From IMG/VR virus record IMGVR_UViG_3300031998_000037: a stretch of DNA of 64,000 nt; one strand, written 5' to 3'. The notes beneath the pieces were generated by a model. It made no database searches and was not told the DNA's origin. It saw only the letters and a list, made by a program, of their open reading frames with translations. The position numbers were made by a program, and so were the translations under genes. This stretch comes from a virus. Taxonomy: Duplodnaviria; Heunggongvirae; Uroviricota; Caudoviricetes. Position 1 is the stretch's first letter, and every line of letters begins with the position of its first letter. Below, in pieces: positions 1 to 54,934 of the stretch.

Positions 1-119
1 TAGGTAAGAAGGGCAATGAACTAAAAACCTATAAGATACATGATTGCAAGGCTATACTCCGCGAATGTTTTGATGCGATACGTCAGCTCGGTCTTACTGA
101 TCTTGACGATAAGTTAAAA

Positions 120-413
120 ATGGAGGCACAAAAAGAATATCTTGGTTATGTTGATTTGACTACAGGCAAGGAAGAAGATAGGCGTAAGCTGCTTATTGAA
201 AACATTTATCCTTTACGAAAAGCTGGAGAAGAACCGTGGGGATATGCAGCATTCACTCGGTCAATAGGTTCAGGCAAATCCGCAAGGCTTACAGTACGGG
301 CAAGAGTTTATGACAGTGATCCTATAGAAAAAATGAATATTATATACGCAAAATCTGTAGAAAAAAACAGGTCAGGATATTGGTACTTACAGGACTATGA
401 TATTCTGTCCTGA
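120..413 (+). CDS. hypothetical protein
   Basis: ORF track; no recognisable motif. Confidence 0.3.
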   Translation: MEAQKEYLGYVDLTTGKEEDRRKLLIENIYPLRKAGEEPWGYAAFTRSIGSGKSARLTVRARVYDSDPIEKMNIIYAKSVEKNRSGYWYLQDYDILS

Positions 414-1704
414 GAAAGAGGTGAATATGAGTCTATTTGATATTGGTCAAGAGGTCTATATTAGAAAAGGTAAATTTGACCGTCCAGAAAAAGGCAGAAT
501 TATTGGCTGCACTATAGGCAGCGTACAACAGTATCAAGTTAAAACAGAACTTATATGTGATTTTTTAAGTCAAGATGATATCTATGCTATTCCTTCATTG
601 CAAGAAATTCGTGATAAGAAGATGACTTGCTTTGTTGAAGCCAGATGCCGTGACGATGTTATGAAAATGCAAAAGAGTTTACCTACATTTGATAACATAC
701 CTAATTATGCGGTAGATATATGGGATATGAATATTGGTTGTAAGAAATATGAAACAGCCATTTGTTTTATAATCCGTGAAGGCATAATTAATGGTTGGTG
801 TTATTGGGAGTTTTATGCAAAAGACCATGAGGAATATGGCAATGGCTATTTTCTGAGAGATGTTTTAAAGGCAAGCGGAGAATATGCAACTGGAGGAGTA
901 GTTTCCTATACAATAAAAGCAGAGGACTTTCCTGATGGACTACCTCACGATCTTAGCATTAAAGTTGGTCACTCTATATCATCAAAAGATATATGTGACT
1001 TTATAGCACGTACAAGTCAAGTATCAATACAAAATTTACAGGAGGATAACAAAATGAAATTTAAAGTTGGAGATAAGGTTATAGGTAATATAGAAGCAAA
1101 TTTATATTATGGCATTACAAGAGAAGGCTGGATTGGCGAAGTTACTAAAACTTATGATAACGGCAATATAAAGGTACGTGGAACAGATCGTTTTGATAAT
1201 ATCGCTGACTATGAGGTTAAAGAAGAATGCTTTGACCTTTATACAGGCAAAATACAAAAATCTCACAAGCTTCGCTTTGAAACAACCGAAGGTGAGCGTT
1301 ACGTATCTCATGGCAAGCATAAGGGTGAAACAATTCCTACAATAACAACTACAGCTTATGATGACACAATGGGTAATTCAGGTTCAGCAACTTGCGATAA
1401 GGCAGACTACAATAAACGTCAGGGTATTATTGAAGCTGTTGCAAACATGACTTATGGCAATTTTGACCGCGAGTACAATAAGTTCCTTAATCACCAGAAA
1501 GAAGTTGAAAATGCTCTTTGCAAGTGTTCAACTTGCGGCAAGACCTATAAGACTAAGGAAGAGGCAAGAGCTTGCGAACAGGCACACATTGACCGCAAGA
1601 AGGCAAAACGCGAAAACTATCTGATGCGTAAGGCTGCAAAGAAACGTGCTCGTGAAATGCAGATTGAACAGATGGCAAAGGATATGCTGAAAGGCGCAAA
1701 ATGA
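397..1704 (+). CDS. hypothetical protein with C-terminal CxxC...C..H zinc-ribbon-like motif and Lys/Arg-rich tail
   Basis: ORF; 'KCSTCGKTYKTKEEARACEQAH' followed by a basic tail; two internal SH3/KOW-like repeats by eye. Confidence 0.35.
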   Translation: MIFCPEKEVNMSLFDIGQEVYIRKGKFDRPEKGRIIGCTIGSVQQYQVKTELICDFLSQDDIYAIPSLQEIRDKKMTCFVEARCRDDVMKMQKSLPTFDNIPNYAVDIWDMNIGCKKYETAICFIIREGIINGWCYWEFYAKDHEEYGNGYFLRDVLKASGEYATGGVVSYTIKAEDFPDGLPHDLSIKVGHSISSKDICDFIARTSQVSIQNLQEDNKMKFKVGDKVIGNIEANLYYGITREGWIGEVTKTYDNGNIKVRGTDRFDNIADYEVKEECFDLYTGKIQKSHKLRFETTEGERYVSHGKHKGETIPTITTTAYDDTMGNSGSATCDKADYNKRQGIIEAVANMTYGNFDREYNKFLNHQKEVENALCKCSTCGKTYKTKEEARACEQAHIDRKKAKRENYLMRKAAKKRAREMQIEQMAKDMLKGAK

Positions 1705-1907
1705 GAAGTGCTGAAAGATTAGACAAGTTCTACGAAGAACTTAAAGAGATACACGCAAAATCTTTTCAGGACTGGCGTTTTGGGCAGCTCATGTTCAACT
1801 TTATTTGTGAGTACGGTGATCCGTTCTTTTTAGAAGAAGATGCCTTTATAGTTGAAATGAAAAAGTATGCAAATAAATACAGCCCGTACTATCATTGGGA
1901 GGTTTAG
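1701..1907 (+). CDS. hypothetical small protein
   Basis: ORF track. Confidence 0.3.
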   Translation: MRSAERLDKFYEELKEIHAKSFQDWRFGQLMFNFICEYGDPFFLEEDAFIVEMKKYANKYSPYYHWEV

Positions 1908-1946
1908 TATATCCTCACAAATAATATGTAGTGGGATTTTTAAAAA

Positions 1947-1959
1947 GGAACTCAGTTCC
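1947..1959. promoter_or_regulatory. GGAACTCAGTTCC 13-bp palindromic intergenic motif (copy 1), followed by CCAAAAAAAAA and the RBS of the SPFH gene
   Basis: exact palindrome seen; recurs at 16058, 16972, 20740, 20776, 20812 (AGAAC variant) and 54694. Confidence 0.6.
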
Positions 1960-1984
1960 AATTCCAAAAAAAAAGGAGAATACA

Positions 1985-2920
1985 ATGGGATTTTTTTACA
2001 ACACAGAAAAGGAAACAGTTCGTGCAGGTCGTATTGTCGGCACAGTAATAGCAGGTGTTGCAGCATTTCTATTACTTACAGGTTCAATCACAAGAGTTCC
2101 CGTAGGCTCAGTAGGCGTACAGACTAACATGGCTAAGGTTACAGGTAACACATATAGTTCTGGTTGGTATTTCAAGATACCGTTTGCCGAGCACATGATA
2201 GATATGTCGATTCAGCAGCAGTCAATTGAATATCCTTCTATTCAGGGCGAACTCTCAGGCAAAGAGCTTATTAACATGACGCTTAAACTTACATATTCCC
2301 TTAATGGTGATAAGGCAGCAAGTGTTTATGAAAACTATGGTGAGAACTATATAACCACACTCATGCCGCAAGAAGAAGTGTTTGATGTTGTAAAGGGTAT
2401 TGTAGCAACATATGACATAGAAGATATCAGAACAAACCGTGCCGCTATAATGCAGCAAGCCGCTGACGGTTTACGCGAAAGATTTGGTTCAAGAGGTATC
2501 ACTATCACTTCACTGGCACTTGCAAATTATGATTTTGGTGATCTTGAAGCCTCTATTGATGCTGAGGTCAAGGCAAAGCAAGAACGCAAAACAGTTGCGG
2601 AACAGAATGAACTTGCAATTGAGGTAGCTGAAAACGCAAAGAAAGTCGCTGAAATTGAAGCTGAAAAAGCAGCGGAGGTCAAGCGTACACAAGCACAGGC
2701 TGATGCGGACGCGGCTAAAATCAAAGCCGAGGGTGAAGCTAATGCCATTAAGATAAGGGGAGAAGCTGAGGCTGAGGCAAATGAAAAGCTTGCAGCGTCT
2801 TTAACCCCTGAACTTATAAAGGCTAAAGAAATTGAACAATGGAACGGATCAAAGGCAACTGTAATTCTTGGTGAAAGCACACAACCTATAGTTCCTATTC
2901 CCGAAACAACACAAGAATAA
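1985..2920 (+). CDS. SPFH/band-7 (HflK/C, prohibitin-like) domain membrane protein
   Basis: N-terminal TM helix, SPFH-like core, then Ala/Glu/Lys-rich coiled coil; start moved to the ATG at 1985 after AGGAG, because the track start at 1931 would run through the palindromic motif. Confidence 0.6.
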   Translation: MGFFYNTEKETVRAGRIVGTVIAGVAAFLLLTGSITRVPVGSVGVQTNMAKVTGNTYSSGWYFKIPFAEHMIDMSIQQQSIEYPSIQGELSGKELINMTLKLTYSLNGDKAASVYENYGENYITTLMPQEEVFDVVKGIVATYDIEDIRTNRAAIMQQAADGLRERFGSRGITITSLALANYDFGDLEASIDAEVKAKQERKTVAEQNELAIEVAENAKKVAEIEAEKAAEVKRTQAQADADAAKIKAEGEANAIKIRGEAEAEANEKLAASLTPELIKAKEIEQWNGSKATVILGESTQPIVPIPETTQE

Positions 2921-2931
2921 AGGAGGACGTT

Positions 2932-3285
2932 ATGAGTAAGTTTATACGTACAGAAACTTATACATATCTGAATGAAGAATATTTTGAAAAGGGCGGCATC
3001 TATTATATCTACAACACTTTTGGCATGGAGTATATCGCTGTATGCACTGGCAAGAAGCCTGATGGTATACATCTTGTAAAAGTTTATAATTTGCCTATAG
3101 AGCAAAAGGACGAGACAGTTATTATACCAGACGATGAGATTATAATGAATGACAGCAATGTTTCATCATTTAAGACCTGTGAGAGAATTGAGCTTAAAGA
3201 AGATACCGACAAGTATGATCGCACAATTTCTTTCTTCTTTAAATTCTCTGCAAAGAAAGACGAGAAAAAGTCTGATGATGAATAA
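2932..3285 (+). CDS. hypothetical protein
   Basis: ORF with RBS AGGAGG. Confidence 0.35.
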   Translation: MSKFIRTETYTYLNEEYFEKGGIYYIYNTFGMEYIAVCTGKKPDGIHLVKVYNLPIEQKDETVIIPDDEIIMNDSNVSSFKTCERIELKEDTDKYDRTISFFFKFSAKKDEKKSDDE

Positions 3286-3884
3286 GAAAGATTGGACAGG
3301 CAATAAGACTTCTGTATTCTCTACATTAGCTGCAAGTAGTCATTCAAAAGATGATAGAGCAAATGACGACTATTATTGTACCCCCCCCCTATGCGGTTGA
3401 GGAACTTCTAAAACGTGAGACATTCAGCACTTATGTTTTAGAGCCTTCCGTTGGCGGAGGGCATATTGCAGAAGTCCTTGAAAGAAACGGTCATAAGATA
3501 CAAGCCTTTGATATTGTAGATCGTGGATATAACAAAACAGAAGTAAGGGACTTCTTAAATGTATCAAAAGAAGATGTCAAGTTTTCCCCTGATATCATCA
3601 CAAATCCTCCATATGCTTTGGCAAAAGAATTTGTTGAACACGCACTTGATATTTCTATGGACAGCACAAAGGTTGCAATGTTTCTTAAAATACAGTTCCT
3701 TGAAAGCAAGAAGCGGTATGAATTATTTAAGAAATATCCACCACGAAAAATATACGTGTTTGTTAACCGCGTTAATTGTGGTAAGAATGGTGTTTTTGGC
3801 AAAGAGTCAAGTGCTGTATGCTATGCATGGTTTGTATGGGTAAAGGGTTATAAAGGCTGTCCACAGGTAGATTGGATAGCATAA
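3275..3884 (+). CDS. phage Dam-family N6-adenine DNA methyltransferase, interrupted by a frameshift at a C9 tract (3381-3389); C8 would give the intact protein
   Basis: N-part 'DDYYCTPP' is in frame 2 and the C-part '...DIITNPPYALAKEF...' in frame 0, joined only across the poly-C; close paralog of the intact ORF 14571-15167. Confidence 0.7.
3381..3389. repeat. poly-C homopolymer (9 nt) inside a methyltransferase gene; candidate slipped-strand phase-variation tract
   Basis: seen in sequence; GC homopolymers this long are otherwise very rare in this AT-rich window. Confidence 0.8.
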
Positions 3885-3895
3885 GGAGATATAAG

Positions 3896-4318
3896 ATGAA
3901 AGTTTATAGAGTTGAAAACCCAAGTGAAGAACATGGACTTTGGCGCAACTTTGACGGTTCTCCATGTGATGTTTTTGAAAAACTTAAAGTTGGCAAATGT
4001 CGTGAAATGCCGATGCCCGATAATGATTTTTATAGGCGAGAGGGAAAGCGTTGGTTTTCCGCAACTGATGCTCCTGAAAAATTAAAGGCATGGTTTGATG
4101 TCTTTGACGTTATACAACTTTGTGAATTAGGGTATAAGGTTTATGAATTTGAGGTTGAATATGCTAAACCTGTAAATGAGTTTGAAGTTGTTTTCACGCG
4201 AGATTTAATTACTTCGTCAACTGCCATTGAACCATCTACTATTTGGAATGATTATGATACGGCAAAAAAATTTTTGACTTGTTGTTGCTGTGACTGTGAG
4301 GATTGTTATGCAAATTAA
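3896..4318 (+). CDS. hypothetical protein (C-terminal Cys cluster CCCCDCEDC)
   Basis: ORF; start placed at the ATG after AGGAG. Confidence 0.35.
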   Translation: MKVYRVENPSEEHGLWRNFDGSPCDVFEKLKVGKCREMPMPDNDFYRREGKRWFSATDAPEKLKAWFDVFDVIQLCELGYKVYEFEVEYAKPVNEFEVVFTRDLITSSTAIEPSTIWNDYDTAKKFLTCCCCDCEDCYAN

Positions 4319-5453
4319 TTGTGATAATGCTGCACAAAAGCCTTTAACCGAATCAGTAAAGCGAACCATAGTTAACTTTATTGATAATGAATTTGGCAAT
4401 CCTTCATCTATATATTCTAAAGGGCGCAACGCTAAACGTGCTCTTGAAGAAGCAAGAAGTCAGATTGCAGAATCAATAGGGGCTGACACAGACGAAATTT
4501 ATTTTACAAGTGGTAGCACCGAGGCAATCAACTGGCTTTATCATTCAACCAACAAACATATTCTGATTTCACCTATAGAGCACAAAGCTATTCTAAAAGG
4601 GAATGAAAATTATGATGGTATCTCTTACGGTTTGGACGTTAAACAAAATGGCGTTATAGATATTGAAAAACTTAAATATCTTTGTAATTGGGTACATGAC
4701 GATGGGGTTGCTATCATAGGTTGGGTAAATAATGAGATCGGTACAATTCAGCCTATAAAAGAAATAGCTAATATTTGCCACGCAAAAGGCGTTGAACTAT
4801 TCGTTGATGCTTCACAAGCTATCGGGCATATACCAATTAATGTGCATGAAATCGGGATGGATTATATGTGCGGTTCATTTCAGAAAATAGGCGGTTTGGC
4901 TGGTAGCGGTTTCCTTTATATAAAAAAAGGCAAAGGGTTCAATCCTATGTTATCTGGCGGATCACAAGAACGCGGCATGAGAGCTGGGACTGAAAACCTT
5001 TTAGGGGTAATGTGTGGTGCAACCGCGATATCCGAAGCAACTAAAAATCTAAGTGATAAAGTCTCCAGACAAAAAGAAATTCAAAGCAAAATTATCTCTG
5101 AACTTCTGAAACTCCCCAAAACACATTTGAATGGCGACTTATGTAATAGAGTTGCAAGCAATGTGAATATATGCTTTGAGGGTATTGAGGCTGAAAGTCT
5201 TGTGCTTCTGCTTGATTTAGATAATATTTGTGTTAGCAGTGGCTCTGCCTGTAACTCAGGTGATGTTAAGCCCAGCCATGTTTTGAAGGCGATAGGTCTT
5301 AGTGATGATAATGCTAAAGCAAGTATACGTATCACCTTTGATGACATGACGGATGATGAAATTGATTATCTTGTAGAGCGAATAAAGGCAAGAGTTAGTC
5401 AGTTAAGAGATATGTCCCCTAAATGGAAGGAGATATTCAATGCAAGTAATTGA
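4308..5453 (+). CDS. cysteine desulfurase (IscS/NifS family, class V aminotransferase)
   Basis: aligns along its whole length with IscS as recalled from memory: 'FTSGSTEAINW', 'NNEIGTIQPI', PLP lysine in 'SFQKIGG', 'SGGSQERGMRAGTEN', catalytic Cys in 'SSGSACNSGDVKPSHVLKAIGL', 'SIRITFDD..EIDYLVERI'. Confidence 0.8.
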   Translation: MQINCDNAAQKPLTESVKRTIVNFIDNEFGNPSSIYSKGRNAKRALEEARSQIAESIGADTDEIYFTSGSTEAINWLYHSTNKHILISPIEHKAILKGNENYDGISYGLDVKQNGVIDIEKLKYLCNWVHDDGVAIIGWVNNEIGTIQPIKEIANICHAKGVELFVDASQAIGHIPINVHEIGMDYMCGSFQKIGGLAGSGFLYIKKGKGFNPMLSGGSQERGMRAGTENLLGVMCGATAISEATKNLSDKVSRQKEIQSKIISELLKLPKTHLNGDLCNRVASNVNICFEGIEAESLVLLLDLDNICVSSGSACNSGDVKPSHVLKAIGLSDDNAKASIRITFDDMTDDEIDYLVERIKARVSQLRDMSPKWKEIFNASN

Positions 5454-5871
5454 AAATAAATATAACTCTGAGTCGCAAAAGGTAAAGTGTGAAGGATGCT
5501 CCAGCACATTTATAATTGATGAGTCAGATTTGAATATAGGCACATACGGCTGCAAGTTCTGGTCTTGTCCATATTGCGGTCAACAAAACTTGATTGACGA
5601 CAGTATTGAACTTACAGAAAGCAACTTTCAATTCCCTCAACACTTTGCAAGTTATAAAAATGGCAAACAGATAAGTAAAGATACTTTGCAAAAATGGGCG
5701 CAAGAAGCTTTATCCTTGCTTGACAAAGATCACAGTTTTGCTCTTCATGCCAGTGGTAATAGTCTTGTGTTTGCCTTTAAATCAGATTATGACGCACATG
5801 AGGCATCTGTGATAGTTTGTGATAACGGCTATTACGAAACCTATGTTAGTTTGCCAGAGGATAGGTTTTAA
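5440..5871 (+). CDS. hypothetical zinc-ribbon protein
   Basis: CEGC...CPYCG motif. Confidence 0.35.
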   Translation: MQVIENKYNSESQKVKCEGCSSTFIIDESDLNIGTYGCKFWSCPYCGQQNLIDDSIELTESNFQFPQHFASYKNGKQISKDTLQKWAQEALSLLDKDHSFALHASGNSLVFAFKSDYDAHEASVIVCDNGYYETYVSLPEDRF

Positions 5872-5971
5872 TACACAAATTCCAGTTTATAATATGGCAA
5901 ACGCCATGTTATATAGGCGTGTGATATTCACACAAAACACAATTTCCATAGAAAGGGTATGGTGATACACA

Positions 5972-6634
5972 ATGAAGAACTATTCTTCTAAAATCCGAAG
6001 TCTCCTCGCAAGAGGGACGAAAGCATTAGCATTAACATCTGTCTTACTCGCTACTGTAAGCTGCTCTCACGGTAAGACGGACACAGACACTTCCAGCAGC
6101 AGAAATGAGGTGACAACGACTTGTACAACTTCTACAACGACATCTACCTCTACAACATCAACAACGTCCTCTACGACAACAAGCACCGAGACAACGACGG
6201 CTGCGACGACGATGCCGACAACAACAATGATGACTGTGCAGGAGAATATTCAAGTGACTGAGTCTGTATATGTTGCTCCTGTTCAAGAGTATATTGAACC
6301 TGTGAACAGCAATCTTCCTATTACTGAGCGTGAAAGGGTTTTACTTTGTAATATTGTTGCAAATGAATATGGCTCAGACTGGGTAAGCGTCTATGACAAA
6401 GCTTGTGTTGTGGCAACTGTTATGAACCGTGTAAATAGCTCGCAATTCCCAAATGATATAGAAAGTGTCCTGACACAACCTCGTCAATTTACTGGCTATT
6501 GGGCAAGCGATAGTTATTATAGCACTGTTACAGACAGTTGCATAGAGGCAGTTGATTATTACTTTGCTCATCAAAATGAATTTGGTAATTACTTATATTT
6601 TGAAGGCGATGGGCGAGTGAATTATTTTCATTAA
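5972..6634 (+). CDS. secreted/lipoprotein cell-wall hydrolase (SleB/Hydrolase_2-like) with a Thr/Ser-rich linker
   Basis: signal peptide with a lipobox-like 'LATVSC', ~60-aa T/S low-complexity stretch, and C-terminal 'VVATVMNRVNSSQFPNDIESVLTQPRQFTGYW' that resembles the SleB family. Confidence 0.5.
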   Translation: MKNYSSKIRSLLARGTKALALTSVLLATVSCSHGKTDTDTSSSRNEVTTTCTTSTTTSTSTTSTTSSTTTSTETTTAATTMPTTTMMTVQENIQVTESVYVAPVQEYIEPVNSNLPITERERVLLCNIVANEYGSDWVSVYDKACVVATVMNRVNSSQFPNDIESVLTQPRQFTGYWASDSYYSTVTDSCIEAVDYYFAHQNEFGNYLYFEGDGRVNYFH

Positions 6635-6680
6635 ACAAAAATCCCCGACTTATGTCGGGGAGAAAGGAACACAAAGATGC

Positions 6681-6899
6681 ATGACAGCTAAACGAATGTA
6701 TTTATGGTCTGTGCATTACAGGGACGAAGTTGAACGCAGCATTGAATACTATAACTACATAAATTTGAAACAACCTGTATGGACAAGACCTTTAACAGAG
6801 ATAGAAAAGAAAGAGATTTTCGGTGGCAATCCGAATTACATAAAGAACATAGGCAGAAATGACGGACACGAATGGAGGCTATTGAATGATAATAATTGA
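6681..6899 (+). CDS. hypothetical small protein
   Basis: ORF. Confidence 0.3.
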   Translation: MTAKRMYLWSVHYRDEVERSIEYYNYINLKQPVWTRPLTEIEKKEIFGGNPNYIKNIGRNDGHEWRLLNDNN

Positions 6900-7560
6900 C
6901 AAAGCAGACGTATGCGGCTGGCAATCCGCTATTCGTGGCATGAGAAATCCTATGAATAGTTGGGATAAGTCTGACAGCCTTTATATGACGGTAAATGATA
7001 TTGTAGGGCATCCATGTGATGATGGCATGAAAGAAGAATTTGTTGTTGGCAATGATGACTTAAATTTAATGAAACGTCTTGTTAAAGCTGGCTCAGATCA
7101 CAGCAAGTTTATGCGAATGATAAATGTAACTTGCGATATTACAGCTCCTTTGTATTGGTGGAAGGAATTTGATACTTATAAGGTAGGCACTGTCAGAAAT
7201 AGCTGCTCGACCATGCATAAGATACACGCAAAACAATTTGAAATTGATGATTTTTCTTGTGATAAGCTTGACTCAAAATCATTAAAAGTTCTTCATTATA
7301 TTATTAACTATCTTAATGGCATGAGAGAATGGCACAACAATACTGAACCAAGTTTAAAAAAAGATGCATGGTGGCAAATGATACAACTCCTTCCGAGTTC
7401 CTATAATCAAAAGGCTACAGTTCAGATAAATTATGCTGTGCTTAGAAATATGTATCATAGTCGTCGTACACATAAGCTTGACGAATGGCATACATTTTGC
7501 AAATGGGTTGAAGATTTACCATACAGTGAATTAATTACAATGGAGGATAAGAATGGCTAA
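6886..7560 (+). CDS. divergent ThyX-fold (flavin-dependent thymidylate synthase-like) protein lacking the canonical RHR motif
   Basis: by-eye alignment to ThyX: 'LMKRLVKAGSDHSKFMRMINVTCDITAPLYWWKEF' versus 'L..L.KHGHETPFEH..FTF.V.APIFVARQWFRHR', and C-terminal 'LRNMYHSRRTHKLDEWHTF' versus 'NLRADSHAQWEI'; the RHR position reads DTY/TYK. Confidence 0.4.
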   Translation: MIIIDKADVCGWQSAIRGMRNPMNSWDKSDSLYMTVNDIVGHPCDDGMKEEFVVGNDDLNLMKRLVKAGSDHSKFMRMINVTCDITAPLYWWKEFDTYKVGTVRNSCSTMHKIHAKQFEIDDFSCDKLDSKSLKVLHYIINYLNGMREWHNNTEPSLKKDAWWQMIQLLPSSYNQKATVQINYAVLRNMYHSRRTHKLDEWHTFCKWVEDLPYSELITMEDKNG

Positions 7561-8104
7561 ACCACTAATAGCAATACTTGGTGTTTCAGGCAGCGGCAAG
7601 ACCTCTCTCGTAAATAAGATTAGTAAGAAATATGGGCGCACTGTTTTGAAGTCTTATACAACACGTAAGCCGCGAGAGGGTGACGATACCGATTTAACAT
7701 CGCATGAGTTTATTACAATGCAAGAAGCTGCATTTATTGCAGAAAACGATAAGATTATAGCAAGCAATTGGTTTGATGGTAACTTTTATTTTGCCACTAA
7801 GAGTCAGCTTGATAAGGCAGACCTGTATGTGGTAGATGTTGCAGGATTAAAAGCTCTGTATCGTAACTATTTTGAGCGTCCAATTTTAAGTGTACTTCTT
7901 AGCGTTGACAGTTCTATTGTTGCTGAAAGAATGGCAAAGCGCGGCGATACAAACGAAGCCATTTTTAAACGCTTGCAGCACGACAGCGAAGCCTTTAAAG
8001 ACGCAACAGATTATGTTGATTTTGTATGCACTAACTTTAATCAAGATCAGTGCAATGACAATGTGGAGTTTATAGAGTTTTTATTTCGCAATTATAAGGG
8101 GTAA
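7553..8104 (+). CDS. P-loop nucleoside/deoxynucleoside monophosphate kinase-like protein
   Basis: Walker A 'GVSGSGKTS'; size 183 aa; sits among nucleotide-metabolism genes. Confidence 0.5.
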   Translation: MAKPLIAILGVSGSGKTSLVNKISKKYGRTVLKSYTTRKPREGDDTDLTSHEFITMQEAAFIAENDKIIASNWFDGNFYFATKSQLDKADLYVVDVAGLKALYRNYFERPILSVLLSVDSSIVAERMAKRGDTNEAIFKRLQHDSEAFKDATDYVDFVCTNFNQDQCNDNVEFIEFLFRNYKG

Positions 8105-8107
8105 GAG

Positions 8108-8311
8108 ATGGTAATAGGTTATTTTGACGGCTCATATGAGAGTTTTAATTTGGTACATCAATTAGATGATAGAGAGATACCCTATGAAGCCAAGAACCAG
8201 CAAGACGCACATGAGTTTGGCTTTTATGATTTGCCAATGCTGGTTGTCGGCAATAAGGTTTTGAATTATAAGAGAGCCTTGAAATGGTTAAAGAAACAAA
8301 AGGGGGATTGA
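8108..8311 (+). CDS. hypothetical small protein
   Basis: ORF. Confidence 0.3.
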   Translation: MVIGYFDGSYESFNLVHQLDDREIPYEAKNQQDAHEFGFYDLPMLVVGNKVLNYKRALKWLKKQKGD

Positions 8312-8312
8312 C

Positions 8313-8513
8313 ATGGTTACATTATATACAATAGACTGCCCTAAATGTAAAATTCTTGAAAAAAAACTTAACAATGCAAATATAAACTATCTTATAGTTA
8401 AGGACAGGGATGAAATAAAAGCAAAGGGTATGGACTTAATGCCAGTCTTAGAGGTCGATGATATTAGAATGAATTTTAAGCAAGCTTGCGATTGGGTTAA
8501 CGAGAGGAGCTAA
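8313..8513 (+). CDS. glutaredoxin-like protein (NrdH-like redoxin)
   Basis: 66 aa; CPKC active-site motif near the N-terminus; immediately upstream of nrdD. Confidence 0.55.
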   Translation: MVTLYTIDCPKCKILEKKLNNANINYLIVKDRDEIKAKGMDLMPVLEVDDIRMNFKQACDWVNERS

Positions 8514-8517
8514 GACT

Positions 8518-10479
8518 ATGGCAAAAAAACAAACATCTACTATAAACGTTGGTATTACTTTAGATAAAGATTTTATTACCCAATACAATAAACTTCAAGC
8601 TGAGTACGGCACAGACATAGCAAGACTTAATGGCTTCGGTGACGATCAGCTTTCATATACAGATTTTATTGATAATTTTATTGATGATGATACAATTGCA
8701 GACGTAAGTATTGACGGCAATAGTAATGTCAGAAGAAAAGATATCGTGACACTGATAACAGAAATGCCAAAACCACACAGAAAGCTTCTTGCCTATAATA
8801 AGATTTACTATGAGTTCAAGAAAAAGTATGGCTTTAAGGCAGCAAATACGTGGCTTGAATATGAATGGTCTGGCAAGCTTTATCTCCATGACGCTGACAC
8901 TTCTTCTATGAAGCCTTACTGTTTTGCCTATGACCTTAAAGACCTTGCTGAAAGAGGGTTGTATTTCTTAGGCATAAACAATACTCAGCCAGCACAGCAC
9001 CTTACTACATTTGTTGATTTTGTAAAGGAGTTTATCTCTTTTGCAAGCAACAGAAGTAGCGGTGCGGTAGGCTTACCAAATATAATCCCGTATATGTTCT
9101 ATTATTGGCGCAAAGATGTCAAGTCTGATTATCTCGGAGTAAGAACAAGCGGCAATGAAAAGAAGTATGCTATTCAGAATTTCCAGAGATTTATCTACGC
9201 TGTCAATCAGCCGTGTGTACGTGATGGTCAGCAGTCAGCCTTTACCAATACAACTGTCTTTGATCGTCCTTACTTTGAAGCTCTTTTCGGCGGAACTGAG
9301 TTTCCTGACGGATCGTTTATGATTGATGCCGAAGAAGAAATAATTGAGTTTCAGAAATGGTATATGGAGACAATGGCTGAAATACGCAGCGAGAATATGT
9401 TTACATTCCCCGTATCAACTATTTCTCTTATTCGCAAGAACGGTAAGTTTGAGGATGAGGAATTTGCACATTGGGCAATTCGCCACAATATGAAGTGGTG
9501 CGATAGCAATATGTTTATTGACAAGGACGTAACTTCACTGTCAAATTGTTGTCGCCTTAAATCTCAGATTGATAACCTCGGCTACTTTAACAGTATCGGT
9601 GGAACAGCTTTAAAGGTTGGTTCAGTCAAAGTTGGCACAATCAATCTGGCTCGTATTGCACTTGATACTGAAAATGAAACTGAGTATCTTACAGAACTTA
9701 AAAAGCGTACCCTTATTGACTTAAAGGTACTTGATATAATCAGAGGCATTATAAAGAGAAATGTTGACAAGGGGCTTCTGCCTAACTTTACTTATGGGCT
9801 AATTGACTTTAAACATTTATATAATACAGTGGGCTTTACTGGTGTATATGAGAGCATGAAAAAGTTTGGCTATATCTCACGCGACTTATTCAATAATGTT
9901 TCCTATACAGAACAAGCCGAAAAGTTTGGTAAGAAGATATTCGATACCATACGCAAGACCGCCGATAAGTTCCTTGAAGATAACACTTGCGATTATCTTG
10001 TTTCACTTGAACAATCACCTGTAGAACAAGCGGCAAGCAAACTGATTCGTAAGGACAAGTTCTTCTATCCTGAGTCTGACATCTACGATTTGCCCGTATA
10101 TGGTAATCAGTTTATGCCACTCGGCATCAAGTCAATCTTACAAGAGAGAATAAGGGTTCAGGCTTTATTTGATGGTTTCTGTTCTGGCGGCAGCATACTT
10201 CATGCCAACATTGAAACGCCTTTTGACAGTTATGAAAAGGCATTGGCAATGACAGAGTATGTCGCAGATCAGGGGGTAACATACTTTGCATGGAACACAA
10301 AGATTTCTGCCTGTGAACATAATCACGCATTTCATGGCAAGATTTGCCCAAAGTGTGGTAAGCCTGTAAAAACAGAGTATACCCGTGTAGTCGGTTTTTA
10401 TACGCCGATTGAAAGCTGGTCAAGTGACCGTAAGGCGGAATATAAATTAAGACAATGGGAGGTAGTGAATGAAACTTAA
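8518..10479 (+). CDS. nrdD: anaerobic ribonucleoside-triphosphate reductase (class III RNR)
   Basis: 653 aa; C-terminal Zn-ribbon 'CPKCGKP' followed by the glycyl-radical motif 'TRVVGFYTP'. Confidence 0.75.
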   Translation: MAKKQTSTINVGITLDKDFITQYNKLQAEYGTDIARLNGFGDDQLSYTDFIDNFIDDDTIADVSIDGNSNVRRKDIVTLITEMPKPHRKLLAYNKIYYEFKKKYGFKAANTWLEYEWSGKLYLHDADTSSMKPYCFAYDLKDLAERGLYFLGINNTQPAQHLTTFVDFVKEFISFASNRSSGAVGLPNIIPYMFYYWRKDVKSDYLGVRTSGNEKKYAIQNFQRFIYAVNQPCVRDGQQSAFTNTTVFDRPYFEALFGGTEFPDGSFMIDAEEEIIEFQKWYMETMAEIRSENMFTFPVSTISLIRKNGKFEDEEFAHWAIRHNMKWCDSNMFIDKDVTSLSNCCRLKSQIDNLGYFNSIGGTALKVGSVKVGTINLARIALDTENETEYLTELKKRTLIDLKVLDIIRGIIKRNVDKGLLPNFTYGLIDFKHLYNTVGFTGVYESMKKFGYISRDLFNNVSYTEQAEKFGKKIFDTIRKTADKFLEDNTCDYLVSLEQSPVEQAASKLIRKDKFFYPESDIYDLPVYGNQFMPLGIKSILQERIRVQALFDGFCSGGSILHANIETPFDSYEKALAMTEYVADQGVTYFAWNTKISACEHNHAFHGKICPKCGKPVKTEYTRVVGFYTPIESWSSDRKAEYKLRQWEVVNET

Positions 10480-10942
10480 AGGTTTGATTGACGAGGATTT
10501 TGTGAATTATAAAAAGCCCTCTATGTTTATATCAACCTATACTTGTTCATTCAAATGTTGCGAGGAATGTGGTCAAGCGGTATGCCAAAACTTACCGCTT
10601 GTATCACAGCCTACAATTGAGGTTGATAATGCAGATTTGGCTGTGCGCTACCTTAATAATGATATAACCCATGCTGTTGTTATCGGCGGACTTGAACCAT
10701 TTGACGACTTTGCAGATTTAAACCGTTTTGTCACTTGTTTTCGTTCTTTCTGCAATGACGATATAGTGATCTATACTGGCTACAATGAAGATGAAATAAA
10801 GCATTATGTTGATAAGCTTAGATGGGTTCACAACCTTTACATTAAATATGGCAGATATATCCCTAATCAGCAGCCGCATTATGATGCCGCCCTCGGTGTT
10901 AAGCTTGCAAGCGACAACCAGAAAGGAGTTAAGGTATGCTGA
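10469..10942 (+). CDS. nrdG: anaerobic RNR activating protein (radical SAM)
   Basis: 157 aa directly downstream of nrdD, overlapping it; Cys cluster 'CSFKCCEEC' and 'GGLEP' motif. Confidence 0.6.
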   Translation: MKLKGLIDEDFVNYKKPSMFISTYTCSFKCCEECGQAVCQNLPLVSQPTIEVDNADLAVRYLNNDITHAVVIGGLEPFDDFADLNRFVTCFRSFCNDDIVIYTGYNEDEIKHYVDKLRWVHNLYIKYGRYIPNQQPHYDAALGVKLASDNQKGVKVC

Positions 10943-11133
10943 GAATAATAAAGAACCCCGATGAAGAAATGTTCAAAGAAGTTCTGACAGCAGTTAAGGC
11001 TAACGATTTATACTGTCCGTGCCGTTTGGAGCGCACACCAGATACTAAATGTCCGTGCAAAGAGTTTCGCGATCAGCGAACAGAAGGGGAGTGCAACTGC
11101 GGGCTTTATGTAAAGGTGCAAGAAGATGATTGA
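10936..11133 (+). CDS. small Cys-rich protein
   Basis: CPC...CPC...CNC. Confidence 0.3.
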   Translation: MLRIIKNPDEEMFKEVLTAVKANDLYCPCRLERTPDTKCPCKEFRDQRTEGECNCGLYVKVQEDD

Positions 11134-11329
11134 TGATACTGTTGCAAACTATTTCCCAATAAACAATAACTTCTTGCTTTGGGTAACACATAAAACAACC
11201 GATGGTCAGTTGTGGTATGTCGTTTCAGATTTGTTTCGGAATGAGTATTACTTATTTAAAGGTAAGCGGCAGTTAAGATATAAAAGTGAAAATCCATTAG
11301 ACCTATACAAATATATAAAGGAGAAATGA
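11126..11329 (+). CDS. hypothetical small protein
   Basis: ORF. Confidence 0.3.
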   Translation: MIDDTVANYFPINNNFLLWVTHKTTDGQLWYVVSDLFRNEYYLFKGKRQLRYKSENPLDLYKYIKEK

Positions 11330-11330
11330 T

Positions 11331-11570
11331 ATGAGCTATTACTGCGAAGTTTGCGGTCATATAGGTGGTCACGCTTACGGCTGCCCAGAAGCACCATCGC
11401 CCAAACCTGTAACATATTGTACCTACTGCGATGAGCCTTTATATATCGGTGATGAAGCTTATCAAGCTGGTAATGATATTTATTGTGCTCAGTGCTGCGG
11501 TAGGATTGAAATAGAAGAGCCTGAAAGAGACTGGGATTTTGAGATAGATAAAAGGAGAGAGAATGAGTAA
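11331..11570 (+). CDS. small zinc-binding protein (multiple CxxC)
   Basis: CEVCGH, CTYCDE, CAQCCG. Confidence 0.35.
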   Translation: MSYYCEVCGHIGGHAYGCPEAPSPKPVTYCTYCDEPLYIGDEAYQAGNDIYCAQCCGRIEIEEPERDWDFEIDKRRENE

Positions 11571-12515
11571 CGAAAATCTAAGAATGGCACGAAAGATTAA
11601 GAATGATGAGTTCTATAGCCGCTATGAAGATATAGAAAAAGAGCTTGTCCATTACAAAGATCAGCTACGCGGCAAGATTGTTTATTGCAACTGTGATATT
11701 CCTGAGAGCAACTTTGTCAAGTTCTTGAATGATGTCAAAGACGAATGGGGCATTCAAGATGTATGGCATACCTCGCTTGACGAGGGTATAAGCTTTGATA
11801 GTGATTATGCGAAAGACTTACTAAGCAAATGTGATGTGGTCATAACAAATCCTCCATTTTCAATCACAAGAGAAAGGTTCGTTCCTATGCTTGAAGAAAG
11901 CGGCAAACAGTTTCTCTTTATAGGCAATCTAAATATGGCAACTATGCGAGAAATATTTCCGCTGATCCGTGACGGCAAACTATGGACAGGCTATACGCAC
12001 CCTAAAGAGTTCCTACAGCCAGATGGCACATACAAAAAGTTTGGTAATTGTTTATGGTGGACTAATATGCCTGTAGAAAAAGAGTTTAGGCTTGACACAT
12101 CAAAAAAGTATTATGGTAATGAAAGTAAATATCCTCACTATGATAATTATGATGCCATTAATGTTGATAGAGTTGCTGATATTCCTTCAGATTATTCAGG
12201 CGTGATTGGCGTACCCGTTACGTTCATTGAACATTATACCCCCACCCCGACAAGATAGGAGGGGACTTCGGCTCAGTATTGTCGGATTTAGAAAGGGAGC
12301 AGACGGCAAAGACCTTCACGCCAACGGAAGATATTATTACGGCAGATACCTTATCGTTATTGGATCATAGATGTGATCTATATAACGAAGTAGGTAGGGG
12401 GGGGTACGACATACATACTTCCATCGCTTGCTCATTAAGAGTCGTTGACGCATTGAACTGTCCAAGTTTAAATAATGAAAAGATATTTAAAAGATTAATG
12501 ATAAGGAGATTATAA
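11563..12515 (+). CDS. N6-adenine DNA methyltransferase (NPPF motif), split by a frameshift at a C5AC4 tract (12239-12248); also carries an in-frame G8 tract (12397-12404)
   Basis: 'CDVVITNPPFS' motif IV. The frame-1 ORF stops at 12258, but frame 0 is open from 12231 to 12515, so a +1 C would fuse them to ~317 aa. Confidence 0.55.
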
Positions 12516-12517
12516 GA

Positions 12518-13044
12518 TTGAGCTTTTCAGAGTCGATAAAGACAAGCTTAGGAGGAGATGAATATTATACTCCTTCTAATGCGGTAGAAATGATTTTACC
12601 TGTGCTGCGCAAGCATAATTTTTCAAAAGTCTGGTGTCCATTTGATACTGCCGAAAGTAATTTTGTTGTAAAACTCAGCAAAGAATTTGAAGTAGTATAC
12701 GGTCATATTTATACTGGACAAGATTTCTTTGAATATGATACCCCCCCGAAGGTGTGGAATGTGTAGTAAGCAATCCGCCATTTAGTAAAAGAAATGATAT
12801 ATTTAAGAGGCTGTTTGAATGGGATATACCTTTTGCTCTTATTATGAATATGAACGGCATCTTTGATAGCAAAGAAAGATATGATTTGTTTAAAGATAAA
12901 CAGGTTGAGTTCTTTATACCAAAGGGTAGAATGAAATTCTTTACGCCTGATGGTGTTACAAAAAACTCGCCTAATTTTCAGAGTATTTATATTTGCAGTA
13001 AATTATTAGATAAACAACTTGAATTTTCTGAAAGTGAATTTTAA
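12518..13044 (+). CDS. phage Dam-family N6-adenine DNA methyltransferase, interrupted at a C7 tract (12741-12747); C8 would restore the frame
   Basis: N-part 'EYYTPSNAVE...YDTPP' (frame 2) and C-part 'ECVVSNPPFSKRNDIF' (frame 1) meet only across the poly-C. Confidence 0.65.
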
Positions 13045-13769: not shown

Positions 13770-14011
13770 TGAAAGACTATTTCGGGCATAAGATAAATAT
13801 AGGCGACATTGTTCTATACAACGAACGCGGCTCAAAAGGATATCGCTCTTCCTTTAGTGAAGGAACTGTGATTGAATTTGTTGGCAAAACAAAAGTAAAA
13901 ATTAAAAACGATTCAAGCTTTTGGGCAGCAACTAAATATCCAGAAAACACAGTTGATCTTACAGCTCTTGATATAAGACAAAAGGTAACACTTAATGAAG
14001 ATAGCGTTTGA
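13769..14011 (+). CDS. hypothetical protein
   Basis: ORF. Confidence 0.3.
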   Translation: MKDYFGHKINIGDIVLYNERGSKGYRSSFSEGTVIEFVGKTKVKIKNDSSFWAATKYPENTVDLTALDIRQKVTLNEDSV

Positions 14012-15439: not shown

Positions 15440-15550
15440 TATGTACTAACGAGGATTGTAAATATAATAGCTCTTGCATCTGTACCGCAGATGTTATTTG
15501 GATAAGCAAAACTGGGAATTGTCGCACATTTAAAACAAAGGAGAACAATA

Positions 15551-16045: not shown

Positions 16046-16057
16046 AATTTTGGTCTG

Positions 16058-18062: not shown

Positions 18063-18063
18063 A

Positions 18064-54706: not shown

Positions 54707-54934
54707 AATTCAAAAAAAACGGTGTAGGGGTTCGCACACCGCAAAGCGAAAATTGTATCATTCGCTCATGCCCACGTACTTTGCATACGTTTAGACGTAA
54801 ATCGGGGTTATGAGCTATACAGCAGTTTTATGTCCTCTGCAAGACATGGTGACGATTGCGAGACTTGAACTCAGCATTGCGCCCGTGAAAGGGGCGTGTC
54901 CTACCTTTAGACGAAACCGCCACAATAATGCGCA

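What the first reader, a model, noticed from the sequence alone, without database searches (positions are those of the whole stretch)
4308..5453. Phage-encoded IscS/NifS-type cysteine desulfurase with intact catalytic Cys and PLP Lys
The ORF aligns end-to-end with IscS, including 'SSGSACNS' and the PLP lysine, although the His before the Lys is Gln. Cysteine desulfurases are uncommon in phages. Plausible roles: supplying Fe-S for the co-encoded radical-SAM NrdG and NrdD, tRNA thiolation of the phage tRNAs, or a sulfur-containing DNA or nucleotide modification (DndA-like), given the neighbouring modification genes.
Basis: partly seen in the sequence, partly recalled or inferred. Interest (0 to 1): 0.6.

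Follow-up and report, generated by a model that had tools for sequence, protein, structure and literature searches.

The report
Phage NifS-type cysteine desulfurase gene
A roughly 100-kb gut phage related to Bacillus phage SPbeta carries an intact, conserved copy of the enzyme that strips sulfur from cysteine; it most likely feeds iron-sulfur clusters to the phage's own oxygen-free DNA-precursor machinery, which makes it a plausible but fairly ordinary stolen metabolic gene.

Summary
Window 4308-5453 (+) encodes a 381-aa class-V, PLP-dependent NifS/IscS-type (group I) cysteine desulfurase. It aligns end to end with E. coli IscS. Every catalytic and PLP-binding residue is present except His205, which is Gln.

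The gene belongs to a monophyletic, phage-only clade of more than 100 metagenome protein clusters (49-94% identity). These lie on roughly 95-115 kb contigs of SPbeta-like phages. The nearest cellular relatives are Clostridia NifS enzymes (38-45% identity), whose genes are usually followed by the NifU/IscU scaffold gene.

About 79% of the phage genome was screened, plus the upstream 10 kb of a relative. No phage-encoded sulfur acceptor turned up: no ThiI, MnmA, TusA, DndCDE, SspBCD, IscU/NifU or SufE.

In every clade member examined, the gene lies inside the nucleotide-metabolism module. That module holds NrdD, the [4Fe-4S] activase NrdG and, in most members, a mini ferredoxin-thioredoxin-reductase-like [4Fe-4S] protein. 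In the most divergent member the gene has moved to sit directly after those two Fe-S genes.

The best reading is sulfur supply for Fe-S maturation of the phage's anaerobic ribonucleotide reductase system, using a host scaffold. tRNA 2-thiolation through host MnmA cannot be excluded. A Dnd-like role is unsupported. This is a new member of a known kind, of moderate to low interest.

The parts
4308..5453 (+). NifS/IscS-type (group I) PLP-dependent cysteine desulfurase, 381 aa. Key residues: PLP Lys193, persulfide Cys315, His92, Asp167, Gln170, Arg341. Position 192 (His205 in IscS) is Gln.
   Evidence: Family and structure matches. All these residues are invariant in 103 of 103 clade members. dN/dS is 0.16 against the 87%-identical gene in L001.
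4298..4302 (+). Shine-Dalgarno sequence GAGGA, 5 nt upstream of the ATG at 4308. It lies inside the 3' end of the upstream ORF.
   Evidence: Sequence read.
3872..4318 (+). Upstream ORF (148 aa as listed; called as 140 aa). It belongs to Pfam family Phage_T4_Y00F, function unknown, and overlaps the NifS start by 11 nt. It is not conserved next to NifS outside the closest relatives.
   Evidence: PHROG 23161, unknown function. It is absent upstream of NifS in L005-L008.
5440..5871 (+). ORF143, a 143-aa protein of unknown function. It has a zinc-ribbon N-terminus (invariant Cys17, Cys20, Cys43, Cys46) and an alpha/beta C-terminal domain. Its ATG overlaps the NifS stop by 14 nt and is preceded by AGGAG. 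It is frequently but not always found with NifS.
   Evidence: It sits downstream of NifS in the window, L001, L005, L007, L008 and L169, but is missing in L006, L167 and L168. The family has 399 clusters and occurs without NifS in L183-L186. There is no fold match.
8108..8513 (+). Two small ORFs (67 and 66 aa) just before NrdD that look like glutaredoxin/NrdH. The second carries a CPKC motif. They are presumed electron carriers for the reductase.
   Evidence: Sequences. No Pfam hit, so the assignment rests on motif and position only. Homologues are conserved before NrdD in L005-L007, L167 and L168.
8518..10479 (+). NrdD, the class III (anaerobic) ribonucleoside-triphosphate reductase, 653 aa.
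   Evidence: Pfam NRDD hit on the called gene.
10469..10942 (+). NrdG-like radical-SAM activase, 157 aa, predicted to bind a [4Fe-4S] cluster. A candidate end-user of the mobilised sulfur.
   Evidence: Pfam Fer4_12, 24.8 bits against a cut-off of 22.
10936..11133 (+). A 65-aa mini protein resembling the catalytic chain of ferredoxin-thioredoxin reductase (motifs CPC...CPC...CNC). Predicted to bind a [4Fe-4S] cluster. A second candidate end-user.
   Evidence: Pfam FeThRed_B, 23.9 bits against a cut-off of 22. Best PDB hit is 4tpu, E 0.0038. The same family follows NrdG in L167 and L168.
54847..54921 (-). Phage tRNA-Glu(UUC). In bacteria this tRNA normally carries 2-thiouridine at position 34. 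It is listed only as the possible substrate under the rival tRNA-thiolation hypothesis.
   Evidence: ARAGORN prediction. The s2U34 requirement comes from general knowledge and was not tested here.

Best explanation
The gene encodes a catalytically competent NifS-type cysteine desulfurase.

**Chemistry (inferred from the family).** PLP bound to Lys193 forms an external aldimine with L-cysteine. Cys315, on the flexible loop, attacks the substrate sulfur. This releases L-alanine and leaves an enzyme persulfide.

**Proposed role.** During infection of an anaerobic gut Bacillota (Clostridia-type) host, the persulfide sulfur passes to a host U-type scaffold (NifU/IscU). The [4Fe-4S] clusters built there go into two phage proteins:
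- the radical-SAM activase NrdG;
- the mini ferredoxin-thioredoxin-reductase-like protein.

Together with NrdD and the small redoxins, these make up a self-contained anaerobic pathway for dNTP synthesis.

**What is shown.**
- The fold family.
- The complete catalytic residue set.
- Purifying selection.
- A phage-only clade.
- Constant embedding in the NrdD/NrdG module.

**What is inferred.**
- Enzymatic activity.
- The identity of the sulfur acceptor.
- That the phage Fe-S proteins are the beneficiaries.
For: **Enzyme identity and integrity.**
- End-to-end match to IscS and NifS structures and models.
- All 103 clade representatives keep H92, N142, D167, Q170, S190, K193, T228, C315 and R341.
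- dN/dS is 0.16.
- The clade is monophyletic with no cellular sequence inside it.

**Ancestry.**
- The best NCBIfam model is NifS.
- The nearest cellular relatives are Clostridia NifS.
- In 44 of 67 of those cellular loci, an IscU/NifU-like gene lies directly downstream.

**Context.**
- NifS lies 3-5 kb upstream of NrdD-NrdG in the window, L001, L002, L005, L006, L007, L008, L167 and L169.
- In the most divergent member (P0100, 49% identity, L168) the gene order is NrdD-NrdG-FeThRed_B-NifS, with only 25 nt between the FTR-like gene and NifS.
- The module therefore holds two predicted [4Fe-4S] proteins.

**No alternative phage acceptor.** No phage-encoded sulfur acceptor was found that would point elsewhere.
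Against: - The examined phages are all relatives with conserved synteny. Apart from the L168 rearrangement, repeated proximity is not independent evidence.
- NifS is 3 kb from NrdD in the window, and an unrelated cell-wall hydrolase gene lies between them.
- Related SPbeta-like phages carry NrdD-NrdG with no NifS within 8 kb (L185). NifS is therefore dispensable for the module.
- No phage scaffold is encoded, so the model depends on an untested interaction with a host protein.
- Compared with cellular NifS, the clade has lost His205 and two surface segments. This could alter partner choice.
- 18 of 73 nearest cellular loci also carry an MnmA-like gene after NifS. Ancestry therefore fits tRNA thiolation just as well.
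Confidence: 0.5

Rival explanations
1. tRNA thiolation. The phage desulfurase feeds host MnmA (s2U34) and/or ThiI (s4U8). This would keep host tRNAs and the phage's own tRNAs, notably tRNA-Glu(UUC), thiolated during infection. The model is the dedicated YrvO-MnmA and NifZ-ThiI pairs of Bacillus subtilis.
For: - The phage encodes tRNA-Glu(UUC), tRNA-Met and tRNA-Ile.
- 18 of 73 nearest cellular NifS loci have an MnmA-like PP-loop gene within 3 kb downstream.
- In other viral NifS clades (37-41% identity), NifS sits beside RNA ligase, a kinase/HD phosphatase and RlaP, which are RNA-repair genes.
Against: - No phage-encoded thiouridylase was found, and no PP-loop (SGGxDS) protein occurs in any locus of this clade.
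- The tRNA genes lie about 50 kb away on the opposite strand, in the late region.
- The RNA-repair neighbourhood belongs to different NifS clades, not to this one.
Confidence: 0.2
2. A general-purpose auxiliary metabolic gene. The enzyme simply raises the host's overall capacity to mobilise sulfane sulfur (Fe-S clusters, thiamine, molybdopterin, NAD via NadA, biotin and lipoate synthases) or alters cysteine, alanine and sulfide pools. It has no dedicated phage client.
For: - Viral cysteine desulfurases have so far been reported only as generic auxiliary metabolic genes in metagenome surveys.
- 382 IMG/VR contigs, in very different gene contexts, carry relatives.
- No phage partner was found.
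Against: - The position inside the RNR module is conserved, and the gene has relocated next to NrdG and the FTR-like gene in L168. This suggests a more specific link.
- The clade has been a separate, phage-only lineage for a long time and has its own sequence signature.
Confidence: 0.18
3. A new two-component sulfur system. NifS hands its persulfide to the translationally coupled zinc-ribbon protein ORF143, which occupies the position that NifU holds in cellular operons. ORF143 would act as a phage-specific carrier or scaffold, or direct sulfur to an unknown thio-modification of nucleotides or DNA.
For: - The 14-nt overlap between the NifS stop and the ORF143 start is conserved in the window, L001, L005, L007, L008 and L169.
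- Four Cys residues are invariant.
- ORF143 is under strong purifying selection, with dN/dS of 0.08.
Against: - NifS occurs without ORF143 in L006, L167 and L168.
- The ORF143 family (399 clusters) occurs in other SPbeta-like phages with no NifS within 8 kb.
- No ORF143 relative lies next to NifS in the other 76 viral or 80 cellular loci.
- The Cys pattern is that of an ordinary zinc ribbon.
Confidence: 0.06
4. DNA phosphorothioation, with the enzyme acting as DndA or SspA for phage DNA.
For: The protein matches the DndA model (248 bits) and the structures of DndA (3vax, 1.2e-40) and SspA (6m4j, 1.1e-35) as a family member. Several DNA methyltransferases are encoded nearby.
Against: - The scores are well below the DndA cut-off (480) and below the scores against NifS and IscS.
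- No DndC, DndD, DndE or SspB, SspC, SspD family was detected in contig positions 21,003-99,751, or in the upstream 10 kb of a relative.
- The nearest cellular relatives sit in nifS-nifU operons, not dnd or ssp clusters.
Confidence: 0.04

Closest known systems
Clostridial/Thermotoga-type housekeeping NifS (NCBIfam TIGR03402), normally paired with a NifU/IscU scaffold
   Same: - It is the best-scoring model, at 342.6 bits over the full length.
- It is 38-45% identical to Clostridia NifS.
- It has the same group I architecture, the same long Cys loop 'SSGSAC[NT]S' and the same C-terminal 'LR..SP.W' tail.
   Different: - The score is below the equivalog cut-off of 530.75.
- It forms a separate phage-only clade.
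- No NifU/IscU gene lies downstream, whereas 44 of 67 cellular loci have one.
- The motif 'S[AG]HK' has become 'SF[GQH]K'.
- Two surface segments are shortened, after 'TEAINW' and before the 'VNNEIG' region.
E. coli IscS (PDB 1p3w, 3lvj-3lvm)
   Same: It aligns 4-374 with 6-388, E 1.9e-65, and all catalytic residues are conserved.
   Different: - About 35-40% identity.
- His205 is Gln.
- About 12 residues of the helix that follows the 'TESDN' motif are missing.
- There is no isc operon context, and no TusA, ThiI, IscU, CyaY or IscX partner is encoded by the phage.
DndA / SspA (desulfurases for DNA phosphorothioation)
   Same: Same fold family, with PLP Lys and catalytic Cys.
   Different: - It is more distant: DndA 248 bits against a cut-off of 480, and PDB 3vax at 1.2e-40 against IscS at 1.9e-65.
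- No DndCDE or SspBCD genes are present.
Dedicated Bacillus subtilis desulfurases YrvO (with MnmA) and NifZ (with ThiI)
   Same: They are group I NifS paralogues of Bacillota that serve a single acceptor. The idea of a dedicated donor for a specific client is the same (general knowledge, not tested here).
   Different: In Bacillus the acceptor gene is adjacent. Here no thiouridylase is encoded by the phage.
Viral cysteine desulfurase auxiliary metabolic genes (PHROG 12787; sufS of Microcystis phage MaAM05; AMG lists from metagenomes)
   Same: It matches PHROG 12787 at 4.7e-98. It is listed as an AMG with an unspecified role. 382 IMG/VR contigs carry relatives.
   Different: - Those are heterogeneous: SufS-type in MaAM05, and RNA-repair contexts in other gut-phage clades.
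- This clade is specific to roughly 100-kb SPbeta-like phages and is tied to the NrdD/NrdG module.
Methanosarcina class III RNR electron chain (ferredoxin, then ferredoxin-disulfide reductase, then NrdH-like redoxin, then NrdD; Wei et al. 2015, Biochemistry 54:7019, cited)
   Same: The phage module combines NrdD, NrdG, small CxxC redoxin-like proteins and an FTR-like Fe-S protein. The best PDB hit of the FTR-like protein is the archaeal FTR-like/rubredoxin protein 4tpu.
   Different: - The phage FTR-like protein is only 65 aa and has CNC in place of CHC.
- Its function is untested.
- A co-encoded desulfurase is not part of the archaeal system as described; that paper itself could not be read.

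Membership tests
Class V aminotransferase fold / group I (NifS/IscS-type) cysteine desulfurase | Full-length match to Aminotran_5 and to solved IscS/NifS structures | tested here: met
   Pfam hit at 1.8e-55 over 2-371 of 371 profile positions. 1p3w at E 1.9e-65, aligning 4-374 with 6-388.
Class V aminotransferase fold / group I (NifS/IscS-type) cysteine desulfurase | PLP Schiff-base lysine (IscS Lys206) | tested here: met
   Lys193 is present and invariant in 103 of 103 clade members.
Class V aminotransferase fold / group I (NifS/IscS-type) cysteine desulfurase | Catalytic persulfide cysteine on the long flexible loop, motif SSGSAC(T/N)S (the group I signature) | tested here: met
   Cys315 lies in 'VSSGSACNSGDVKPSHVL'. 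The loop is the same length as in IscS and the Cys is invariant.
Class V aminotransferase fold / group I (NifS/IscS-type) cysteine desulfurase | Remaining PLP and substrate ligands (IscS His104, Asn155, Asp180, Gln183, Ser203, His205, Thr243, Arg354) | tested here: inconclusive
   Seven of the eight are conserved and invariant. His205 is Gln here, and Gly (66), Gln (24) or His (13) across the clade. The effect on PLP phosphate binding is unknown.
Class V aminotransferase fold / group I (NifS/IscS-type) cysteine desulfurase | Cysteine desulfurase activity (L-Cys to L-Ala plus persulfide) | not testable with these tools
   Needs a biochemical assay. Only purifying selection supports function, with dN/dS of 0.16.
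NifS equivalog TIGR03402 (housekeeping Fe-S NifS paired with NifU) | Score above the curated equivalog cut-off | tested here: not met
   342.6 bits against a cut-off of 530.75. It is best described as a NifS-like subfamily outlier, not an equivalog.
NifS equivalog TIGR03402 (housekeeping Fe-S NifS paired with NifU) | Adjacent NifU/IscU scaffold gene | tested here: not met
   No IscU/NifU-like ORF occurs in the window or in loci of this clade. It is present directly downstream in 44 of 67 nearest cellular loci.
IscS equivalog (TIGR02006 / PRK14012) | Score above the cut-off, and an isc operon context | tested here: not met
   291.1 bits against 643.2, and 287 against 548. There are no isc genes.
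DndA (TIGR03235) / SspA | Score above the cut-off | tested here: not met
   248.4 bits against 480.
DndA (TIGR03235) / SspA | Co-occurrence with DndC/D/E or SspB/C/D | tested here: not met
   No such Pfam families were found in contig positions 21,003-99,751 or in the upstream 10 kb of a relative. The first roughly 21 kb of this exact contig was not seen.
SufS / CsdA (group II desulfurases) | Short Cys loop, a group II insertion, and a SufE/SufU/CsdE partner | tested here: not met
   SufS models score only 120.6 bits against a cut-off of 475. The loop is of the group I type.

The most novel reading that the evidence does not exclude
The phage desulfurase is not a generic booster. It would be the sulfur-donating half of a virus-specific maturation pathway. 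One version has it working with the translationally coupled zinc-ribbon protein ORF143 as a new kind of persulfide acceptor or scaffold that replaced NifU. Another has it loading the phage NrdG and mini-FTR directly, without the host Fe-S machinery. A third has it feeding an as yet unknown thio-modification made by the neighbouring divergent ThyX-like and kinase nucleotide enzymes.
Probability: 0.08. Interest if true: 0.7.

Novelty: new member of a known kind. Interest (0 to 1): 0.35.

Why it matters
If the proposed role is right, a widespread group of gut phages carries more than the anaerobic ribonucleotide reductase, its activase and its electron-delivery proteins. It also carries the sulfur-mobilising step needed to load their iron-sulfur clusters.

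That would be a concrete, testable case of a virus securing cofactor biogenesis for its own enzymes. It goes beyond a generic 'auxiliary metabolic gene' label.

The phage-only clade has a distinctive active-site signature (SF[G/Q/H]K) and has lost two surface segments. It is therefore a natural experiment on which IscS/NifS features are needed for catalysis and which for partner recognition.

The practical value is modest. The enzyme family, its chemistry and the presence of such genes in viral metagenomes are all already known.

Tried and rejected
- **Megablast against INPHARED.** Window 1-25000 gave no match. There is no cultured close relative to borrow annotation from.
- **Single-protein scan of IMG/VR.** It found nothing. 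An alignment-based scan was needed.
- **ORF143 as the sulfur partner.**
  - No Pfam hit and only a weak PHROG hit to a family of unknown function.
  - The AlphaFold2 model reached only pLDDT 62.5.
  - Rejected as an obligatory partner because it and NifS each occur without the other.
- **Context look-ups.**
  - Two window proteins (25745-26764 and 120-413) were not on record.
  - One look-up, P0139, landed on a 602-bp contig.
- **Promoter and terminator scan of 1-17000.** Counts did not differ clearly from shuffled sequence (73 against 57.5±6.8, and 12 against 10.4±3.1). No operon boundaries could be drawn.
- **GTDB genome scan for a prophage or plasmid copy, to name the host.** No genome carries a clade member. 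The best hit was 44% identity.
- **Stop-codon recoding.** I considered it when a called gene seemed to be missing from my ORF list. This was an artefact of my own overlap filter; the ORF 53512-54534 is intact under code 11.
- **ThyX-like ORF 6886-7560.** No Pfam or PDB hit, so it gave no lead to a thio-nucleotide pathway.
- **Wei et al. 2015.** The paper could not be read. It is cited only through reference lists.
- **Malformed coordinates.** One Pfam call failed on bad coordinates and was repeated.
Full report
**1. The observation**

The ORF listed at 4290-5453 has its real start at ATG 4308 and encodes 381 aa. A GAGGA ribosome-binding site lies 5 nt upstream, and every homologue begins at the same Met.
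- It matches Pfam Aminotran_5 over the whole profile, at 1.8e-55.
- In NCBIfam it scores best against NifS (TIGR03402, 342.6 bits), then IscS (291.1) and DndA (248.4). All three are below their equivalog cut-offs.
- Against solved structures, E. coli IscS aligns residues 6-388 with 4-374 of the phage protein, E 1.9e-65.

The alignment shows the following residues (phage = IscS):
- PLP lysine: Lys193 = Lys206
- Persulfide cysteine: Cys315 = Cys328, in 'VSSGSACNS'
- His92 = His104
- Asn142 = Asn155
- Asp167 = Asp180
- Gln170 = Gln183
- Ser190 = Ser203
- Thr228 = Thr243
- Arg341 = Arg354

**2. What kind of genome this is**

The window matches a 99,751-bp ENA metagenome contig. I could view contig positions 21,003-99,751, which is about 79% of it.

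- **Structural genes.** They hit Pfam families named after Bacillus prophage SPbeta: YonB, YonD, YonG, YonJ, YomU, YomV and YomW. Terminase and tape-measure genes are also present.
- **Transcription.** An 879-aa protein of the RdRP family is present, resembling the YonO RNA polymerase.
- **Replication and recombination, upstream of the window.** Sak, SSB, a PD-(D/E)XK nuclease, a DnaG-DnaB fusion and a PolIII-alpha-type polymerase.
- **Plasmid-type maintenance module, on the minus strand.** A Rep3 initiator, ParB and ParA. This suggests a phage-plasmid lifestyle.
- **Cultured relatives.** No cultured phage in INPHARED is close at the DNA level.

**3. A phage-only NifS clade**

The large protein search returned about 100 clusters at 49-94% identity, many on contigs of 95-115 kb. 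Cellular NifS follows at 45% identity or less; one example comes from Caproiciproducens.
- A scan of one genome per GTDB species found no clade member. The best hits were Clostridia at 38-44%.
- In a neighbour-joining tree of 227 sequences, the 102 clade members plus four IMG/VR sequences form one clade with no cellular sequence inside.
- In all 103 representatives the nine catalytic and PLP residues above are invariant.
- The position equivalent to IscS His205 is Gly (66), Gln (24) or His (13). The position before it is mostly Phe. Both positions show the canonical residues in the cellular-type hits.
- The His-to-Gln change is therefore a lineage signature (S-F-[G/Q/H]-K), not a lesion.
- dN/dS against the 87%-identical gene of a sister phage is 0.16.

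The gene is maintained by selection and looks catalytically competent. Activity itself is inferred.

**4. Search for sulfur acceptors**

I combined precomputed Pfam hits for the called genes with my own scans. Nothing resembles any of the following:
- ThiI, MnmA or TtcA, or any other PP-loop protein
- TusA or rhodanese
- SufE or SufU
- IscU, NifU or IscA
- MoaD or ThiS
- DndC, DndD or DndE
- SspB, SspC or SspD

A motif search for SGGxDS proteins found none in any locus of this clade.

The 10 kb upstream of the recombination module in a related 115.6-kb phage holds only a metallophosphoesterase, a WDGH-domain protein, Lar, an HD protein and Sak. The first roughly 21 kb of this exact contig stayed out of reach.

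**5. The immediate neighbours**

*Upstream.* A Phage_T4_Y00F-family ORF overlaps the NifS start by 11 nt. It is found there only in the closest relatives.

*Downstream: ORF143 (5440-5871).* Its start overlaps the NifS stop by 14 nt and has its own AGGAG site. It has four invariant cysteines in a zinc-ribbon pattern and an alpha/beta C-terminal domain. Cellular nifS genes are usually followed by nifU/iscU (44 of 67 loci), so ORF143 looked like a possible replacement partner. The evidence goes against a dedicated partnership:
- NifS lacks ORF143 in L006, L167 and L168.
- The ORF143 family is large, with 399 clusters at 50% identity.
- It occurs in other SPbeta-like phages with no NifS within 8 kb.
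- It is absent beside NifS in all other viral and cellular loci.

**6. The conserved wider context**

In every clade member examined, NifS lies in the nucleotide-metabolism block. In the window lineage the order is:
1. NifS
2. ORF143 (in some members)
3. a SleB-like cell-wall hydrolase
4. ThyX or a ThyX-like protein
5. a dNMP kinase
6. two small redoxin-like ORFs
7. NrdD
8. NrdG
9. a 65-aa ORF
10. NT5C
11. dUTPase

This order appears.

The 65-aa ORF (10936-11133) passes the Pfam threshold for the catalytic chain of ferredoxin-thioredoxin reductase, at 23.9 bits against a cut-off of 22. It carries the CPC...CPC...C(N/H)C motif, and its best PDB hit is the archaeal FTR-like/rubredoxin protein 4tpu. 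An FTR-like ferredoxin-disulfide reductase has been reported to deliver electrons to a class III ribonucleotide reductase in Methanosarcina barkeri. I know this only from the paper's title, as cited.

The phage module therefore contains two predicted [4Fe-4S] proteins: NrdG and the mini-FTR.

The most telling locus is L168, which carries the most divergent clade member (49% identity). There the order is NrdD-NrdG-FeThRed_B-NifS, with a 25-nt gap. NifS is followed by the homologue of the ORF that follows the mini-FTR in the window. NifS has changed position and ended up directly behind the two Fe-S genes.

**7. Interpretation**

The best-supported mechanism has three steps:
1. The enzyme makes a Cys315 persulfide from L-cysteine.
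2. It passes the sulfur to a host U-type scaffold.
3. This sustains [4Fe-4S] loading of the phage NrdG and FTR-like protein, so that anaerobic dNTP synthesis can run during infection.

I give this about 0.5. Several caveats apply:
- The surveyed phages are related, so synteny is weak evidence apart from L168.
- Some related phages have NrdD-NrdG without NifS.
- No scaffold is phage-encoded.
- 18 of 73 nearest cellular loci also carry an MnmA-like gene after nifS. Ancestry therefore cannot separate an Fe-S role from a role in 2-thiouridine synthesis.

The phage's own tRNA-Glu(UUC) would normally need s2U34, so the tRNA hypothesis stays alive at about 0.2. A non-specific auxiliary role gets about 0.18, an ORF143-dependent novel system about 0.06, and DNA phosphorothioation about 0.04.

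**8. Comparison with what is known, and novelty**

The protein is a member of the group I NifS/IscS cysteine desulfurase family, and the fold, lysine, cysteine and loop type are all met. It is not an equivalog of NifS, IscS or DndA by NCBIfam cut-offs. It also lacks the operon partners that define those systems.

Viral cysteine desulfurases are already on record:
- PHROG 12787, labelled 'unknown function'.
- 382 IMG/VR contigs with relatives.
- A mention as an auxiliary metabolic gene in a metagenome survey.
- A sufS annotated in Microcystis phage MaAM05.

I found no paper that characterises one or links it to phage NrdG.

This is a new member of a known kind. Its lineage-specific features are the active-site signature, two shortened surface segments and the constant association with the RNR module. 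Interest is moderate to low, at 0.35.

Noticed in passing
window 16989-20664 (-): A plasmid-type maintenance module sits in a phage genome: a Rep3-family initiator (16989-18062), ParB (18665-19867) and ParA (19867-20664). This suggests the phage is kept as a phage-plasmid. Relatives differ: L167 has a tyrosine integrase and L168 a serine recombinase at the equivalent place, while L169 also has Rep3.
   Followed up: partly
window 39500-57400 (-) and 60265-62904 (-): The structural genes hit Pfam families named after Bacillus prophage SPbeta (YonB, YonD, YonG, YonJ, YomU, YomV, YomW). An 879-aa protein hits the RdRP family (PF05183), resembling the YonO single-subunit RNA polymerase. This points to an SPbeta-like lineage in gut anaerobes.
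   Followed up: partly
window 10936-11133 (+), with 8108-8513 (+): A 65-aa mini protein resembling the catalytic chain of ferredoxin-thioredoxin reductase (CPC..CPC..CNC) lies directly after NrdG. Two small redoxin-like ORFs lie before NrdD. Together they suggest a phage-borne ferredoxin-dependent electron supply to a class III RNR, as described for Methanosarcina. The arrangement is conserved in L005, L167 and L168.
   Followed up: partly
IMG/VR loci L054, L055, L057, L058, L068, L071, L074, L076, L079 (NifS at 10001-11140) and L019, L028, L029, L033, L038, L042: In other viral NifS clades (37-41% identical to this one), NifS is immediately followed or flanked by several genes:
- an RNA ligase (PF09414 plus the PHA02142 OB domain);
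- an AAA_33 kinase with an HD domain;
- RlaP, the nucleotidyltransferase of the RNA repair pathway;
- a radical-SAM protein;
- a nucleoside deoxyribosyltransferase-like protein.

This is an RNA-repair neighbourhood that might link viral desulfurases to tRNA repair or re-thiolation.
   Followed up: partly
window 5440-5871 (+); P0126-P0275: ORF143 belongs to a large, unannotated family of small proteins with a zinc ribbon and an alpha/beta domain. The family has 399 clusters at 50% identity, and some members carry a duplicated N-terminal ribbon. It is found in the early regions of roughly 100-kb SPbeta-like phages. It has no Pfam hit and no fold match.
   Followed up: partly
window 6886-7560 (+): This 224-aa ORF occupies the position where relatives (L006, L167, L168) encode a clear ThyX. 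It has no Pfam or PDB hit itself, although L008 has a 62%-identical copy. It may be a highly diverged ThyX or a replacement enzyme in the pyrimidine pathway.
   Followed up: partly
window 11563-12258 and 12754-13044 (+): EcoRI-methylase-like sequence is split into two ORFs, with two small ORFs (12279-12766) between them. The sister phage L001 has one 344-aa gene. This may be a disrupted or interrupted methyltransferase. At least four other methyltransferase-like genes lie on this strand (3351-3884, 13188-13769, 14571-15167).
   Followed up: no
L005 4908-7802; L169 14428-17398: NrdD of related phages is interrupted. In L005 an intein with a LAGLIDADG domain sits inside NrdD. In L169 an HNH homing-endonuclease ORF splits NrdD into two parts.
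   Followed up: no
IMG/VR loci L024 (445-1836), L026 (7365-8756) and 7 others: In another viral NifS clade, a Cys-rich 463-aa ORF with no Pfam hit at E 0.01 ends right at the NifS start. Its N-terminus looks like a PP-loop/PAPS-reductase protein by eye, which is only a lead. This could be a genuine desulfurase-acceptor pair in other phages.
   Followed up: no
window 57722-59775 (-) and 1931-2920 (+): The phage also encodes a beta-CASP/metallo-beta-lactamase RNase-like protein (474 aa), a ClpP-family protease (210 aa) and an SPFH/Band-7 protein (329 aa).
   Followed up: no
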